A stretch of DNA of 48,685 nt from a virus (lineage: Duplodnaviria; Heunggongvirae; Uroviricota; Caudoviricetes), in IMG/VR virus record IMGVR_UViG_2541047926_000004, positions 1 to 48,685 of that record. The stretch is one strand, 5' to 3'. The notes below the pieces were generated by a model. The model made no database searches and was not told the DNA's origin. It was given only the letters and a program-made list of their open reading frames with translations. Shown piece after piece: positions 9,802 through 14,372 of this stretch. The stretch's first letter is position 1. The number at the start of each line of letters is the position of its first letter. The position numbers and the translations under genes were made by a program.

Positions 9802-10347
9802 ATGACTATGCAACCACTTACATACCAACAGACTAGCGGATTTAGCCCGACTGCGGTGATAAATCGTTCTCAAACAAAACAGGCGCCAGGCCACGAAAAA
9901 ATCCGTGATGCCGTCCGCGCCTGGTCGGCTGCAGATAATCAGGATGTCGTTGCCGCACTCATTGTGAATGAGTATCGGGAGCAGGGCGACGGCACCATCG
10001 ATTTCCCTGATGATGTCAGCCGTGCACGCCAGAAGCTGTTCCGCTTCCTCGATAACAAATTCGATTCTGAAAAATACCGAAATAACGTGCGTGAACTGAC
10101 CCCGGCAATTCTGGCGGTACTACCGCTGGAATATCGCGGTTACCTGGTTGAGCAGGATAGCTTCATGACTAGGTTGGCTGAAATGGAAAAGGAACTCAGT
10201 GAGGCAAAACAGGCTGTCATTCTCAACGCACCACGCCACCAGAAACTGAAGGAAATTAGTGAAGGTATTGTGTCGATGTTTCGTGTGGACCCAGATCTGG
10301 CTGGTCCATTGATGGCGATGGTTACTACCATGCTGGGGGCGATATGA
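9802..10347 (+). CDS. CII-like phage regulatory protein
   Basis: 181 aa at the cII position between cro and O; family assignment from memory, unverified. Confidence 0.45.
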   Translation: MTMQPLTYQQTSGFSPTAVINRSQTKQAPGHEKIRDAVRAWSAADNQDVVAALIVNEYREQGDGTIDFPDDVSRARQKLFRFLDNKFDSEKYRNNVRELTPAILAVLPLEYRGYLVEQDSFMTRLAEMEKELSEAKQAVILNAPRHQKLKEISEGIVSMFRVDPDLAGPLMAMVTTMLGAI

Positions 10348-10433
10348 CAGGTTCAGAAATGGCGAAAGCCGGTCTGCTGGAACAGAACCGACTTTCAGGT
10401 GCAAATCGTAACACACTCATTGCGGGAGGAATT

Positions 10434-11363
10434 ATGGCAAACACTGCTGAGATATTCAATTTTCCAGTGCCGGATGCGGCACAAAAGGAGCCGCGCGTGG
10501 CAGATCTCGATGATGGTTATACGCGCATTGCAAATGAGTTGCTGGAAGCTGTGATGCTGGCCGGATTAACACAGCACCAGCTTCTGGTCTTTCTGGCTGT
10601 CATGCGCAAAACATATGGCTTTAATAAAAAACTGGATTGGGTTAGCAACGAGCAACTTTCCGAATTAACCGGGATATTGCCGCACAAGTGTTCTGCTGCA
10701 AAAAGTGCTCTGGTAAAGCGTGGGATTTTTATTCAGAGCGGGCGGAATATAGGCATTAATAATGTGGTCAGTGAATGGTCAACATTACCCGAATCAGGTA
10801 AGAAAAATAAAGTTTACCTGAAAGAGGTAAATTTACCTGAATCAGGTAAGAAAAGTTTACCCAAATCAGGTAAAGGCACTTACCCGAATCAGGTAAACAC
10901 AAAAGACAAACTAACAAAAGACAATATAAAACCTTATTCGTCCGAGAATTCTGGCGAATCCTCTGACCAACCAGAAAACGACCTTCCTGTGGTGAAACCA
11001 GATGCTGCAATTCAGAGCGGCAGCAAGTGGGGGACAGCAGAAGACCTGACCGCCGCAGAGTGGATGTTTGACATGGTGAAGACCATCGCGCCATCAGCCA
11101 GAAAACCGAATTTTGCAGGGTGGGCTAACGATATCCGTCTGATGCGTGAACGTGACGGCCGTAACCACCGCGACATGTGCGTGCTGTTCCGCTGGGCATG
11201 CCAGGACAACTTCTGGTCCGGTAACGTGCTAAGTCCGGCCAAACTCCGCGACAAGTGGACCCAACTCGAAATCAACCGTAACAAGCAACAGGCTGGCGTG
11301 ACAGCCGGAAAATCAAAACTCGACCTGACAAACACTGACTGGATTTACGGGGTGGATTTATGA
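10434..11363 (+). CDS. O: replication initiator O
   Basis: MANTAEIFNF...VADLDDGYTRIANELLEA parallels lambda O N-terminus; GGAGGA RBS before ATG 10434; iterons inside the gene; track ORF starts at 10344. Confidence 0.85.
   Translation: MANTAEIFNFPVPDAAQKEPRVADLDDGYTRIANELLEAVMLAGLTQHQLLVFLAVMRKTYGFNKKLDWVSNEQLSELTGILPHKCSAAKSALVKRGIFIQSGRNIGINNVVSEWSTLPESGKKNKVYLKEVNLPESGKKSLPKSGKGTYPNQVNTKDKLTKDNIKPYSSENSGESSDQPENDLPVVKPDAAIQSGSKWGTAEDLTAAEWMFDMVKTIAPSARKPNFAGWANDIRLMRERDGRNHRDMCVLFRWACQDNFWSGNVLSPAKLRDKWTQLEINRNKQQAGVTAGKSKLDLTNTDWIYGVDL
10786..10896 (+). repeat. origin iterons (five ~17-bp repeats TACC[CT][GA]AATCAGGTAA)
   Basis: Five tandem copies with internal dyad symmetry inside the O gene, as at ori-lambda. 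Confidence 0.75.
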
Positions 11364-12061
11364 AAAACATCGCCGCACAGATGGTTAACTTTGACCGTGA
11401 GCAGATGCGCCGGATCGCCAACAACATGCCGGAACAGTACGACGAAAAGCCGCAGGTACAACAGGTAGCGCAGATCATCAATGGTGTGTTCAGCCAGTTA
11501 CTGGCAACTTTCCCGGCGAGCCTGGCTAACCGGGACCAGAACGAACTGAACGAAATCCGCCGCCAGTGGGTTCTGGCTTTCCGGGAAAACGGGATCACCA
11601 CGATGGAACAGGTTAACGCAGGAATGCGCGTAGCCCGTCGGCAGAATCGACCATTCCTGCCATCACCCGGGCAGTTTGTTGCCTGGTGCCGGGAAGAAGC
11701 ATCCGTTACCGCCGGGCTGCCAAACGCCAGCGAGCTGGTTGATATGGTTTACGAGTATTGCCGGAAACGTGGCCTGTATCCGGATTCAGAGTCTTATCCG
11801 TGGAAATCAAACGCGCACTACTGGCTGGTTACCAACCTGTATCAGAACATGCGGGCCAATGCGCTGACTGATGCGGAATTACGGCGCAAGGCTGCCGATG
11901 AACTGGCCTGTATGACAGCGCGAATTAACCGTGGTGAGGCGATACCTGAACCAGTAAAACAACTTCCTGTTATGGGCGGGAGACCGCTTAATCGTGTTCA
12001 GGCTCTGGCGAAGATCGCAGAAATCAAAGCGAAGTTTGGGCTGAAAGGAGCAAGTGTATGA
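11360..12061 (+). CDS. P: replication protein P (helicase loader)
   Basis: 233 aa near-identical to lambda P as recalled. Confidence 0.95.
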   Translation: MKNIAAQMVNFDREQMRRIANNMPEQYDEKPQVQQVAQIINGVFSQLLATFPASLANRDQNELNEIRRQWVLAFRENGITTMEQVNAGMRVARRQNRPFLPSPGQFVAWCREEASVTAGLPNASELVDMVYEYCRKRGLYPDSESYPWKSNAHYWLVTNLYQNMRANALTDAELRRKAADELACMTARINRGEAIPEPVKQLPVMGGRPLNRVQALAKIAEIKAKFGLKGASV

Positions 12062-12231
12062 CGGGCAAAGAGGCAATTATTCATTATCTGGAGACGCACA
12101 AGAGCTTCTGTGCGCCGGACGTTGCTGTGACAACAGGTGTGACATTAACCAGCATAAATCAGGCTGCGGCAAAAATGGCGCGGGCAGGAATCCTGGTCAT
12201 TGATGGTAAGGTCTGGCGAACGTTTGTTTAA
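12058..12231 (+). CDS. ren: Ren-like protein (short)
   Basis: 57 aa MTGKEAIIHYLETHKSFCAPDVAVTTG... matches lambda Ren N-terminus; ATGA overlap with P; below the ORF-track size cut-off. Confidence 0.7.
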   Translation: MTGKEAIIHYLETHKSFCAPDVAVTTGVTLTSINQAAAKMARAGILVIDGKVWRTFV

Positions 12232-12377
12232 CGGTTAGCTACTCAGGATGATAGGGCGGGGCAAGTGAGTATGAAGCGGATTTTAAGGAATGCCATCAGA
12301 GTTTGGAAATAAAGTGGGTTTTCTAGTGGCAAGAGACTTGATAATATTTAGTTCTTTGAATCCAAGGAGATAGGGTT

Positions 12378-12872
12378 ATGAGAAAATTTATTTTAGCCTT
12401 TGTTATAAGTGCCTCGTTTACAGCAAATGCTGGTGTAGAGAAGTTAGGGCCGTGGATAACAAAGTCTGAGATAAATAAAATGACTGACCAGACTGACTTT
12501 GTGGCTCTTAATTTATCACCAGATTCATATAACAAAGCAGGTACTGATCGTGCAACTTCACTGGTGTTGCGTTGTAGTGATAACAAAACAGATGCCTATT
12601 TATCATTCAATGATTATATGGGTTCGGACAACCCAAGAATTACAGTGCGGTTAGATGGCGGAAAGCCGGTCAAGAGTGTTTGGGGAGGTGGGGAAGGCGG
12701 TGATTCTGCATTTGCTCCACAACCAATACAATTTATAAAGACCTTGGCTAAGCATAAAAAAGCTATTTTTGGGTTTGAACCTTATGGATCAACTATGCAA
12801 GTAGTTGAGTTTGACTTGTCTGAGATTGATAAGGTTGTGGAAAAAATTTCACAGTCTTGCAATTGGAAATGA
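12378..12872 (+). CDS. hypothetical exported protein (signal peptide)
   Basis: 164 aa; N-terminal MRKFILAFVISASFTANA signal-like; AAGGAGA RBS; followed by its own terminator. Confidence 0.55.
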   Translation: MRKFILAFVISASFTANAGVEKLGPWITKSEINKMTDQTDFVALNLSPDSYNKAGTDRATSLVLRCSDNKTDAYLSFNDYMGSDNPRITVRLDGGKPVKSVWGGGEGGDSAFAPQPIQFIKTLAKHKKAIFGFEPYGSTMQVVEFDLSEIDKVVEKISQSCNWK

Positions 12873-12889
12873 CAAAAAAATTTCATATG

Positions 12890-12916
12890 AACCCAGTTGG
12901 CGCTGGGTTTTTTATT
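12890..12916 (+). terminator. rho-independent terminator
   Basis: Hairpin AACCCAGTTGGCGCTGGGTT followed by TTTTTATTT. Confidence 0.5.
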
Positions 12917-13509
12917 TCAGTAGCCAATAATGCATTCAAAATCTCTTACTTGAGAAACGGCCTATTTGAGATTTCAGTCGTGGCAGGATGATCAGTTGAT
13001 TCGAGTATTGACGCATTTGCGTTCGGAGCGATTACAGTAGATTGTAAATAATAATGAGAAACACATAGCCACATAGCCACCCCGTGGTATTGAAACCATA
13101 TAATGTTGGATTTGAAAACAGATCTTTTCCCATGTATTAATAACTACATCCCCGCGAGTAATTCAAAAAGGAGGGCCCAATTTTGTCCGAGTTTTTGTAT
13201 TCCCCCGCATGCCGCTGCGGAGCACTACATCTGAGTGTCTGACTAGGGGATAAAATTAGACTGGATAGTGAGAAGAAAGTGGCGCGCTAGGCTGTGCCGA
13301 GTGCTACCAGTACACCTTGGGGGTGTGCAGCTTTCGCCGAGACTGTAGTGGGTATCGGTTAATGCACGAAAAACCGAGAGGTCAGACAACCAATTTGCCG
13401 TAGGATTGTTTCCGGTGCGATACCGGTCTACTAACTGAAAGCAATGCGAAAAAGCATAAACTCGGTCCTTCAGTCGCCCTACACACTATTTACTAAGAAG
13501 GGCTGAAGC

Positions 13510-13710
13510 ATGGATACAATTATTACATGGATGGGAGATCGTCTGTTGGGGGGGACACAAAAATCCGATCTGCGGCAGATGGCGATCACTGGATTAACTT
13601 CCGCGATTTGTTCAACAATTTTGTACACTGAAAAATTAAAACATGGTGAGCCTATTAACCCAAACGAAGAAGAAAAACTTTATAGGCTTTGGTATGAAGG
13701 AAACGCTTGA
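13510..13710 (+). CDS. hypothetical small protein
   Basis: 66-aa ORF with GAAGGG upstream; no motif. Confidence 0.3.
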   Translation: MDTIITWMGDRLLGGTQKSDLRQMAITGLTSAICSTILYTEKLKHGEPINPNEEEKLYRLWYEGNA

Positions 13711-13916
13711 AAGAATAAAGCACAATTAAAACCTTTGATTTGCGATAATCAACTTGCCATAATTAAGTAATCGGAGCCTGAACAACTCCGGTGACTTCTG
13801 CGCTAAACGGGGACGTTTATGCGCACATACAATCCAACCTCTCTTCTCCATTCACAGATGCAGAAATGCACCTGCGATATTTTGCATCCAGCGTTTGATC
13901 TCTGCGGAGGTGAAGC

Positions 13917-14372
13917 GTGAACCTCCCACAAGATGGTATCAAATTGCATCGCGGTAACTTCACCGCTATCGGTCGGCAGATCCAGCCTTATCTGGAGGAC
14001 GGCAAATGCTTTCGTATGGTGCTTAAACCGTGGCGCGAGAGACGCAGTCTTTCCCAGAATGCACTCAGCCACATGTGGTACAGCGAAATCAGTGAATACC
14101 TCATCAGCAGGGGTAAAACGTTCGCCACTCCAGCTTGGGTAAAAGATGCTCTCAAACACACTTATCTCGGTTATGAAACCAAAGAACTGGTTGATGTCGT
14201 AACCGGTGAAATCACCACCATTCAGTCATTACGTCATACCTCCAATCTTGATACCGGAGAGATGTATGTCTTCCTGTGTAAGGTTGAAGCCTGGGCGATG
14301 AATATTGGCTGCCACCTGACTATTCCGCAGAGCTGCGAGTTCCAGCTGCTCCGCGACAAGCAGGAGGCGTAA
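13917..14372 (+). CDS. ninB: NinB-like recombination protein
   Basis: GTG start with GGAGG upstream; [16 protein letters not shown] resembles lambda NinB core. Confidence 0.6.

What the first reader, a model, noticed from the sequence alone, without database searches (positions are those of the whole stretch)
12378..12916. Exported-protein moron in the nin region with its own terminator
A 164-aa protein with a clear N-terminal signal peptide and a strong RBS is inserted between ren and ninB and ends with a hairpin plus T-run. Secreted or periplasmic proteins in this slot are typically lysogenic-conversion factors. I do not recognise the family.
Basis: partly seen in the sequence, partly recalled or inferred. 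Interest (0 to 1): 0.4.

Follow-up and report, generated by a model that had tools for sequence, protein, structure and literature searches.

The report
Prophage cargo gene: exported VasI-like protein
A lambda-like prophage carries a self-contained add-on gene for a small protein exported to the periplasm; it is a short, phage-borne relative of a poorly understood type VI secretion accessory protein (VasI/TagO) and most likely helps the lysogen keep out other phages, though this has not been tested.

Summary
Positions 12378-12872 (+) encode a 164-aa protein under strong purifying selection. It has a consistent Sec signal peptide (predicted cleavage ANA|GVEK), a strong ribosome-binding site, low GC, and an intrinsic terminator (12889-12917) that covaries across homologues.

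It is not a type VI secretion gene:
- It lacks the canonical N-terminal module.
- It fails the VasI equivalog model (14 bits against a cutoff of 124).
- None of 83 loci showed type VI markers.

Thirty-nine loci place it in this ren-ninB slot, all at least 98% identical. Forty-three place it between the tail chaperone and tape-measure genes of Klebsiella-, Serratia-, Pantoea- and Salmonella-type siphophages. That is the slot held by HK97 gp15, a superinfection-exclusion moron. The shared DNA is exactly the ribosome-binding site, ORF and terminator.

Best guess (about 0.4): a periplasmic superinfection-exclusion or anti-phage factor. It is supported by the anti-phage activity of the VasI-like-fold protein SDIC4B. 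Interest is moderate: a new phage-borne variant of a known family, with function untested.

The parts
12058..12302 (+). Disrupted ren gene (left neighbour). The truncated 57-aa ORF is 12058-12231; ren-homologous DNA continues to about 12302.
   Evidence: ORF list. RefSeq marks 'protein ren, frameshifted; internal stop' in an identical prophage. About 85% DNA identity to annotated Ren genes over query positions 1-245.
12339..12347 (+). Candidate own promoter: extended -10-like motif TGATAATAT (-10 hexamer TAATAT at 12342-12347), 39 nt before the ATG. No good -35 element.
   Evidence: TGnTAnn[AC]T occurs at -39 to -46 in 9 of 11 distinct upstream regions of homologues with different upstream neighbours. 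The other two have TGnnTAGGAT. It is often preceded by the terminator of the previous unit. The generic sigma-70 scan did not call it. Function is inferred, not shown.
12364..12369 (+). Shine-Dalgarno sequence AAGGAG, 8 nt before the start codon. DNA homology with the tail-slot alleles begins here.
   Evidence: Sequence. blastn homology starts at 12364/12370.
12378..12872 (+). CDS of the 164-aa VasI-like (IalB-fold) protein, stop codon included.
   Evidence: PF11319 26.7 bits. PHROG 1848, E 2.7e-70. 2073 family representatives at E<=1e-3. dN/dS 0.04-0.17. AlphaFold pLDDT 91.8.
12378..12431 (+). Predicted Sec signal peptide (aa 1-18), with signal peptidase I cleavage after ANA.
   Evidence: Layout conserved in all 17 subfamily members, no lipobox. 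Residues 1-19 have low pLDDT.
12432..12869 (+). Mature 146-aa periplasmic domain: beta-sandwich plus two helices. Invariant Cys66 (12573-12575) and Cys161 (12858-12860), and a C-terminal C-N-W-K motif.
12889..12917 (+). Intrinsic terminator: 9-bp stem, 4-nt loop and T-run. It is the right end of the mobile cassette and sits where lambda has tR2.
   Evidence: Compensatory stem changes across alleles. DNA homology to tail-slot alleles ends at 12911-12916. The tR2 analogy comes from my knowledge of lambda.

Best explanation
This is an autonomous prophage cargo cassette (a moron) made of a weak extended -10 promoter, a strong ribosome-binding site, one ORF and an intrinsic terminator. It sits between a decayed ren gene and ninB.

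The product is a Sec-exported, soluble periplasmic protein of about 146 aa. It has the VasI/IalB beta-sandwich fold, probably locked by a Cys66-Cys161 disulfide. It is a short, phage-specific offshoot of the VasI/TagO family that has lost the N-terminal module and any link to type VI secretion genes.

The most likely role is superinfection exclusion or anti-phage defence. Made from the prophage, and also during lytic growth because it lies in the rightward operon, it would sit in the periplasm and interfere with the envelope-crossing or DNA-delivery step of incoming phages.

Shown: gene, cassette, mobility, family, fold, selection.
Predicted: export.
Inferred: promoter activity, disulfide, expression in the lysogen, and the anti-phage function itself.
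For: Cassette and mobility:
- GC dip.
- Terminator with covariation.
- Conserved -10-like motif.
- DNA homology to other alleles limited to 12364-12916.
- PhiR30_1 has other envelope cargo (an acyltransferase and an outer-membrane lipoprotein) in the same slot.
- Of 83 loci, 39 are in the ren-ninB slot (>=98% identical) and 43 lie between the tail chaperone-like DUF6246 gene and the tape-measure gene (55-81% identical). None showed type VI markers.
- 106 IMG/VR loci against only 3 in 185,579 species-representative genomes.

Export.

Family and fold.

For the anti-phage role:
(i) The chaperone/tape-measure slot is exactly where the HK97 gp15 moron lies, and gp15 is a proven superinfection-exclusion protein (PMC3594210).
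(iii) Other VasI-family genes occupy positions typical of lysogeny-expressed cargo. In Brucella phage BiPBO1 the gene lies directly behind the CI-like repressor. In P2-like and P88-like phages it lies between ogr and int/att. All of these carry signal peptides.
Against: - There is no experimental data for this protein, and no paper mentions it.
- PADLOC has no match.
- The only family member tested genetically, V. cholerae VCA0118, has a type VI-related phenotype (PMC3166118).
- The promoter is only a motif. The generic scan did not call it, and expression in lysogens is unknown.
- Slot analogy with gp15 is circumstantial, because that slot holds many kinds of cargo (Arc/Ant, KilA-N, YafO).
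Confidence: 0.4

Rival explanations
1. Type VI-related conversion factor. The prophage supplies a VasI/TagO-like periplasmic accessory protein that either boosts the host's own type VI secretion system or shields the lysogen's envelope from incoming type VI attack.
For: - It is a genuine, if distant, sequence relative of VasI: PF11319, E about 1e-17 to 1e-20 against ~200-aa proteins, of which those checked score 47-76 bits on PF11319.
- Both cysteines align with the E. coli T6SS-2 TagO ECs_0222.
- VCA0118 contributes to type VI-dependent killing without affecting Hcp or VgrG secretion.
- RefSeq names the protein TagO.
Against: - None of 83 loci showed type VI markers.
- The N-terminal C..RLxC[YF]D module of canonical VasI is missing.
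- The TIGR03360 equivalog scores 14.4 against a cutoff of 124.2.
- It is only 18% identical to the E. coli TagO.
- The subfamily is essentially confined to phages.
- No similarity to known type VI immunity families was seen.
Confidence: 0.2
2. Host-interaction or virulence factor of the IalB type. The exported protein changes the cell envelope or surface to aid adhesion, invasion or survival in an animal host, as lambda Lom and Bor do.
For: - A P2-like phage paralogue weakly hits Pfam IalB (20.6 bits).
- The C. rodentium prophage study lists a VasI-family gene as virulence cargo.
- The same prophage type carries iss/bor.
Against: - IalB's own mechanism is unknown, and it is reported at the inner membrane.
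- Identity to it is only 9%.
- Carriers come from cattle, humans, wastewater, frogs, salad and wild birds, with no pathotype signal.
- There is no lipobox or outer-membrane anchoring signal, so surface exposure is unlikely.
Confidence: 0.1
3. Lytic-cycle helper. The protein is made mainly during lytic growth from read-through phage transcripts, and acts in the periplasm of the producing cell. It could protect progeny from being inactivated on debris, or tune envelope breakdown.
For: - The gene has the same orientation as the surrounding early operon here and the late tail operon in the siphophages.
- The own-promoter evidence is only a motif.
- Lytic T4-like phages (RB16, KP15, VH7D) encode uncharacterised proteins with the same fold.
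Against: - A terminator directly upstream of many units and a conserved -10 motif argue for independent transcription.
- Related phages do without the gene, so it is not part of the core lytic programme.
- The BiPBO1 homologue is linked to the repressor gene.
Confidence: 0.1
4. Not a functional gene: a decaying hitch-hiker or chance ORF.
For: The neighbouring ren is a pseudogene. Several database copies are truncated (P0004, P0018, P0030).
Against: - dN/dS is 0.04-0.17 with saturated synonymous sites.
- Residues are invariant across 96 family members.
- The fold is predicted with confidence.
- It is intact and at least 99% identical in 81 of the 84 E. coli genomes that carry it.
Confidence: 0.03

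Closest known systems
VasI / TagO (Pfam PF11319, formerly DUF3121; NCBIfam TIGR03360; V. cholerae VCA0118, E. coli T6SS-2 ECs_0222)
   Same: - Homologous C-terminal domain: PF11319 positions 78-184.
- Predicted exported protein.
- The same two invariant cysteines and the C-terminal C-x-W motif.
- Same fold class.
- Function still mechanistically unknown.
   Different: - 164 aa rather than about 200-250 aa.
- Lacks the N-terminal C..RLxC[YF]D module.
- 18% identity to the E. coli TagO.
- Far below the equivalog cutoff.
- Not near type VI genes in any locus examined; carried as phage cargo.
SDIC4B (Serratia defence-island candidate 4, Pfam PF27224; bioRxiv 10.1101/2024.01.28.577318)
   Same: - Small (157 aa) single-domain protein with a signal peptide.
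- One Cys in a central strand and one at the end of the C-terminal helix.
- Similar order of secondary-structure elements.
- Its authors describe a VasI-like fold.
- Found on mobile or defence loci, not in type VI clusters.
- Shown to protect against phages on its own.
   Different: - No detectable sequence or profile similarity.
- It sits in chromosomal defence islands, often near BrxR and with a second secreted protein (SDIC4A), not in phage genomes.
IalB, invasion-associated locus B protein (Pfam PF06776; PDB 3DTD)
   Different: - 9% identity and no sequence-level hit for our protein.
- Alphaproteobacterial chromosomal gene.
- Linked to erythrocyte invasion.
HK97 gp15 moron (superinfection exclusion; Cumby et al. 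2012, summarised in PMC3594210)
   Same: - A single-gene moron with its own signals.
- It occupies the tail-chaperone/tape-measure slot where 43 homologues of our gene lie.
- Envelope-located product.
- Derived from a bacterial family (YebO) and diverged in phages.
   Different: - Unrelated sequence.
- gp15 is a small inner-membrane protein, not a soluble periplasmic beta-sandwich.
- In this window the gene sits in the nin region, not the tail operon.
T4 Spackle (Sp): a periplasmic protein that blocks the tail-spike lysozyme of superinfecting phage (from my own knowledge, not tested here)
   Same: A small Sec-exported periplasmic phage protein that acts on the incoming tail tip. It is a mechanistic precedent for what is proposed here.
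   Different: Unrelated sequence and fold. It comes from a lytic phage. No evidence links our protein to a lysozyme or spike.

Membership tests
VasI/TagO (type VI secretion-associated protein) | Match to Pfam PF11319 at or above the gathering score | tested here: met
   26.7 bits against a cutoff of 26.5, covering only profile positions 78-184 of 184. Membership is better supported transitively: phmmer E 1e-17 to 1e-20 against ~200-aa proteins, and those checked score 47-76 bits on PF11319.
VasI/TagO (type VI secretion-associated protein) | Equivalog-level match to NCBIfam TIGR03360 (VasI) | tested here: not met
   14.4 bits against a cutoff of 124.2.
VasI/TagO (type VI secretion-associated protein) | Encoded within or next to a type VI secretion gene cluster (the meaning of 'Tag') | tested here: not met
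   tblastn with TssM, ClpV, TssK, TssC, TssF, Hcp and VgrG found none in 83 loci with up to 8-10 kb of flank where the contig allowed. All interpretable contexts are phage. The canonical ECs_0222 lies beside ClpV.
VasI/TagO (type VI secretion-associated protein) | Full-length architecture: signal peptide, N-terminal C..RLxC[YF]D module, then C-terminal domain (about 200-250 aa) | tested here: not met
   The signal peptide is followed directly by the C-terminal domain. The N-terminal module seen in most representatives is absent.
VasI/TagO (type VI secretion-associated protein) | Invariant Cys pair and C-terminal C-x-W motif | tested here: met
   C66 and C161 are invariant and W163 nearly invariant in 96 sequences. 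They align with the ECs_0222 cysteines.
Moron (Juhala/Hendrix sense: independent transcription unit added between genes that are adjacent elsewhere) | Own intrinsic terminator | tested here: met
   Homology with other alleles runs through the hairpin and T-run.
Moron (Juhala/Hendrix sense: independent transcription unit added between genes that are adjacent elsewhere) | Own promoter active in the repressed prophage | tested here: inconclusive
   A conserved extended -10-like motif lies at -39 to -46, with no good -35 element. The generic scan did not call it. No expression data.
Moron (Juhala/Hendrix sense: independent transcription unit added between genes that are adjacent elsewhere) | Composition differs from flanks; present or absent among related phages; found in different slots | tested here: met
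   GC 36-43% against 50-58%. PhiR30_1 has other cargo in the slot. The nin slot and the tail slot are both used.
Sec-exported soluble periplasmic protein | Cleavable type I signal peptide, no lipobox, no further membrane segment | tested here: met
   Heuristic analysis of 17 homologues and the AlphaFold domain boundary. SignalP and experiments were not available, so this is a prediction.
IalB-like fold superfamily | Structural superposition on IalB (PDB 3DTD) | tested here: met
SDIC4B-type anti-phage proteins (PF27224) | Sequence or profile homology to SDIC4B | tested here: not met
   BLASTP E 0.07. hhalign probability 0.4%. Pfam precomputed labels differ: PF11319 against PF27224.
SDIC4B-type anti-phage proteins (PF27224) | Confers phage resistance when expressed alone | not testable with these tools
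   Needs plating-efficiency assays.

The most novel reading that the evidence does not exclude
VasI-fold proteins may be periplasmic binders of phage-tail-like tips (VgrG/gp5-type spikes or tape-measure/tip complexes). In type VI clusters they would help the outgoing spike cross the envelope. Temperate phages would have captured a trimmed version repeatedly (lambdoid, Klebsiella/Serratia siphophages, P2-like, P88-like, Brucella and Pasteurella phages) and turned it against incoming tails as a superinfection-exclusion factor. This would give the VasI/TagO family, functionally obscure since its 2011 genetic characterisation, a concrete and testable molecular activity. It would also link a type VI accessory protein to phage exclusion.
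Probability: 0.12. Interest if true: 0.7.

Novelty: new variant of a known kind. Interest (0 to 1): 0.4.

Why it matters
VasI/TagO is a widespread type VI-associated family (more than 2,000 clusters at 50% identity) whose mechanism is still unknown. This window carries a minimal, signal-peptide-plus-domain version that has left type VI clusters entirely. It travels as a single-gene cassette between unrelated temperate phages, including the classic HK97 gp15 exclusion slot.

That makes the family's core domain easy to test in E. coli K-12 with standard phage and competition assays. [quoted passage not shown] If the anti-phage role holds, it adds a periplasmic, non-abortive defence to the prophage repertoire.

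Tried and rejected
- PDB sequence search with the protein and with a 96-sequence profile: only chance-level hits.
- PADLOC: no match.
- NCBIfam: only a sub-threshold VasI hit.
- Direct link to SDIC4B by BLASTP and hhalign: none. Only a weak shared structural neighbour list.
- AFDB Foldseek: library not installed.
- The generic sigma-70 scan found no promoter upstream on the + strand. The promoter proposal rests on a motif I found by comparing homologues.
- Lipoprotein: rejected, no lipobox.
- Tail assembly or structural role (suggested by the position next to tape-measure genes): rejected because of the signal peptide and because the same gene works from the nin region.
- Opposite-strand ORF 12323-12586 (87 aa): rejected. 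Selection and homology follow the + frame.
- Literature: no paper mentions WP_001224618. 'VasI-like' and 'DUF3121' each return one paper.
- Side element 13148-13483 as a structured RNA: no Rfam hit, unremarkable folding z-scores, and similar compensatory counts on both strands. Left unexplained.

Full report
**1. What is in the sequence**

The ORF list gives an ATG ORF at 12378..12872 on the + strand, 164 aa.
- AAGGAG lies at 12364-12369, 8 nt upstream of the start.
- Downstream, a 9-bp stem with a 4-nt loop (12889-12910) runs into a T-run ending at 12917. Its folding energy is -12.2 kcal/mol, z = -2.45 against shuffles.
- GC falls to 36-43% across 12250-13150, against 50-58% in the O, P and nin genes on either side.
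- Upstream are lambda-type O (10344-11363) and P (11360-12061), then a 57-aa ORF that is the N-terminal half of Ren.
- RefSeq annotates the identical prophage region as 'protein ren, frameshifted; internal stop'. ren-like DNA continues to about 12302.
- ninB starts at 13917.

**2. It is a real, constrained gene for an exported protein**

Between alleles from E. coli, Salmonella, Klebsiella, Serratia, Pantoea and an Enterobacter-like host, synonymous sites are saturated. Where dS can be estimated, dN/dS is 0.04-0.17.

All 17 close homologues begin the same way: two positive charges, a hydrophobic core (mean Kyte-Doolittle 2.5-3.7 over 8 residues), and an A-x-A-type site 17-20 residues in (ANA, ASA, TMA, AAA, SIA). 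The sequence of this segment is poorly conserved, and none has a lipobox.

AlphaFold, given a 96-sequence alignment, yields mean pLDDT 91.8 and pTM 0.84. Only residues 1-19 are of low confidence, and the first strand starts at residue 20. I could not run SignalP, so export is a strong prediction, not a result.

The mature protein has exactly two cysteines, C66 and C161. Both are invariant in 96 diverse family members, together with F145. W26, D37, R65, T71, R91, W102, F112 and W163 are nearly invariant. In a periplasmic protein this points to a structural disulfide.

**3. The family**

- Pfam gives PF11319 (VasI; type VI secretion VasI/EvfG/VC_A0118) at 26.7 bits, just above the 26.5 cutoff, over residues 56-163 and profile positions 78-184.
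- PHROGs gives phrog_1848, unknown function, E 2.7e-70.
- The NCBIfam VasI equivalog scores 14.4 against a cutoff of 124.2. PADLOC finds nothing.
- An exhaustive phmmer search of 1.84 billion cluster representatives finds 2,073 relatives at E <= 1e-3. Most are about 200 aa, with E of 1e-17 to 1e-20. Sampled ones hit PF11319 over its full length at 47-76 bits. Homology to the VasI family is therefore solid despite the marginal direct score.
- The canonical members carry an extra N-terminal module with a C..RLxC[YF]D motif, which is absent here.
- The bona fide E. coli T6SS-2 TagO (Sakai ECs_0222, next to ClpV) scores 179 bits on PF11319. It is 18% identical to our protein over 112 residues, with both cysteines aligned.
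[quoted passage not shown] It occurs in 84 of 5,426 complete E. coli genomes, with 81 copies at least 99% identical, and the listed annotations place it beside the broken ren.

**4. Fold**

- A P2-like phage paralogue hits both Pfam VasI (89.6 bits) and, weakly, IalB (20.6 bits). This agrees with VasI and IalB being related.
- Foldseek against viral models finds the fold in uncharacterised proteins of T4-like lytic phages (RB16, KP15, VH7D).

**5. Where the gene lives**

This is the most informative result.
- Close homologues (55-81% identical) looked up by exact sequence all lie in siphophage-type prophages of Klebsiella, Pantoea, Salmonella, Serratia and an Enterobacter-like host. They sit between a DUF6246 tail-chaperone-like gene and the tape-measure gene. 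They often lie about 60 bp from the tape-measure gene, sometimes with other cargo (Arc/Ant, KilA-N, YafO) beside them.
- A pattern scan found 106 relatives in IMG/VR, of which 80 were kept. It found only 3 in 185,579 species-representative genomes.
- I classified the 83 loci by tblastn with marker proteins. Thirty-nine are in the lambdoid P-ren-[gene]-ninB arrangement, all at least 98% identical to the window. Forty-three are in the chaperone/tape-measure slot, at 55-81% identity. One was too short to classify. None contains TssM, ClpV, TssK, TssC, TssF, Hcp or VgrG.

The diverse, older population is therefore in the tail slot, and the E. coli nin-region copy looks like one recent transfer.

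- DNA homology between the window and tail-slot alleles runs from 12364/12370 to 12911-12916. That span is the ribosome-binding site, ORF and terminator, and nothing else.
- The terminator stem covaries among alleles.
- Upstream sequences differ between contexts. Even so, 9 of 11 distinct ones keep TGnTAnn[AC]T at -39 to -46 (TGATAATAT at 12339-12347 here). The other two have TGnnTAGGAT. The motif is frequently just after the terminator of the preceding unit.
- A closely related phage, PhiR30_1, about 96% identical across the matching segments of the early region that includes O and P, has an intact ren. It has an acyltransferase and an outer-membrane lipoprotein in the ren-ninB slot instead.

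This is a textbook moron. Only the activity of the promoter remains unproven.

**6. More distant phage-borne VasI-family genes**

- In Brucella phage BiPBO1 the gene follows the CI-like repressor gene after an 8-bp gap, in the same direction.
- In P2-like (500465-2, 3LV2017) and P88-like phages a 297-aa form, preceded by a zinc-ribbon protein gene, lies between ogr and the integrase/att end.
- In Pasteurella phage Pmp1 it overlaps an upstream gene for another signal-peptide protein.
- The three I translated (Pmp1, BiPBO1, 500465-2) have signal peptides and end in ACNW or ACNWK.

Temperate phages of several unrelated types have thus captured this domain, at positions typical of genes expressed from the prophage.

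**7. What it most likely does**

Genetic data on the family are thin. V. cholerae VCA0118 is predicted to be exported. It is not needed for Hcp or VgrG-1 secretion, yet it is required for killing amoebae and contributes to killing E. coli. Its role was left open (PMC3166118).

Two lines point towards phage exclusion for the phage-borne form.

First, the chaperone/tape-measure slot is where the first-named moron lies. That is HK97 gene 15, whose envelope-located product blocks genome entry of superinfecting phages in a tail-dependent way (PMC3594210).

Second, a Serratia defence-island study found that SDIC4B alone gives 10-200-fold protection against several coliphages. The authors report a VasI-like fold by HHpred and structure prediction, and the gene is not associated with type VI clusters (bioRxiv 10.1101/2024.01.28.577318).
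- I recovered its coding sequence from the plasmid table. It encodes a 157-aa protein with a signal peptide, one Cys in a central strand and one at the end of the C-terminal helix. That is the same layout as ours.
- Sequence and profile comparisons find nothing.
- The fold link is therefore plausible but weak in my hands.

I commit to periplasmic superinfection exclusion or anti-phage defence as the most likely function, at about 0.4. The rivals are a type VI-related role (0.2), an IalB-like host-interaction role (0.1), a lytic-cycle helper (0.1) and no function (0.03, contradicted by selection).

**8. Novelty and interest**

The gene is already in databases under a family name, and morons for exported proteins are familiar. 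What is new is the recognition of a distinct short subfamily of VasI:
- it is confined to phages;
- it is uncoupled from type VI secretion;
- it moves as a defined cassette between unrelated phage slots;
- it has an experimentally testable exclusion hypothesis.

The RefSeq name is misleading for this subfamily. I rate it a new variant of a known kind, interest 0.4.

**9. Limits**

There are no expression data, no localisation data and no phenotype. Signal-peptide and promoter calls are heuristic. Structural comparisons rest on predicted models, and I could not superpose models on each other or search AFDB.

Noticed in passing
window 13148-13483 (between the cassette terminator and ninB): A roughly 335-nt element is 78-79% identical to Klebsiella phage Kp4856-1 (OK490410.1, 12700-13034). 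Blocks of perfect identity are separated by variable blocks with indels that are not multiples of three, and there is no shared long ORF. It has no Rfam hit at E<=1. Forty-eight IMG/VR contigs carry its core 29-mer, but nearly all are at least 98.6% identical. Folding z-scores (-0.75 and -0.26) and compensatory-pair counts (6 on + against 5 on -) are inconclusive. A conserved Shine-Dalgarno sequence plus a TTG-start 19-codon mini-ORF (about 13172-13240) is another possibility..
   Followed up: partly
window 12058-12302: ren is a pseudogene in this phage: a 57-aa truncated ORF, with ren-like DNA continuing out of frame. RefSeq flags the identical copy as frameshifted with an internal stop.
   Followed up: yes
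L157 (PhiR30_1, PV340558.1) 1373-3807, equivalent to window 12058-14372: The ren-ninB interval is an exchangeable cargo slot. This closely related phage has an intact ren, then an acyltransferase and an outer-membrane lipoprotein, instead of the VasI-like gene. The distance from the VasI-like gene to ninB also varies among otherwise identical prophages: about 1040, 1486 or 1580 bp.
   Followed up: partly
L003 4235-5465 (phage 500465-2) and L007 3202-4432 (P88-like): P2-like and P88-like phages carry a two-gene unit between ogr and int/att. It is a 110-aa zinc-ribbon protein plus a 297-aa VasI-family protein. The 297-aa protein, translated for 500465-2, has a signal peptide and three tandem C..RLxCYD modules before the domain. 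A 717-aa metagenomic protein (P0063) fuses zinc-ribbon, membrane and VasI parts.
   Followed up: partly
L006 3012-4429 (Brucella phage BiPBO1 gp68-gp67): A full-length VasI-family gene lies 8 bp downstream of the CI-like repressor gene and in the same direction. This is a position typical of prophage-expressed exclusion genes.
   Followed up: no
L008 3480-4495 (Pasteurella phage Pmp1): The 164-aa VasI-like gene overlaps by 4 nt an upstream gene for a 174-aa protein that also has a signal peptide and no Pfam match. This recalls the SDIC4A/SDIC4B pair of secreted proteins.
   Followed up: no
window 13735-13763: A promoter-like site (TTGATT, 17-nt spacer, TG-CATAAT) lies just upstream of ninB. 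It falls in a stretch 93% identical to the phage 82 record X92588.1, where -35 and -10 signals and a 'possible regulator-binding site' are annotated.
   Followed up: no
BFVD matches to the model (no window coordinates): Uncharacterised proteins of lytic T4-like phages (RB16 D9IC73, KP15 D5JF58, Vibrio phage VH7D V9LYR6) share the fold at Foldseek E 1e-6 to 1e-4. The fold is therefore not restricted to temperate phages.
   Followed up: no
L009-L023 and L067-L107 (tail modules of Klebsiella, Serratia, Pantoea and Salmonella prophages): The interval between the DUF6246 chaperone-like gene and the tape-measure gene is a busy cargo site. In the loci with gene calls it holds Arc/Ant-type, KilA-N, YafO-toxin and HNH genes in different combinations. 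Upstream terminators were seen in several of the units read.
   Followed up: partly
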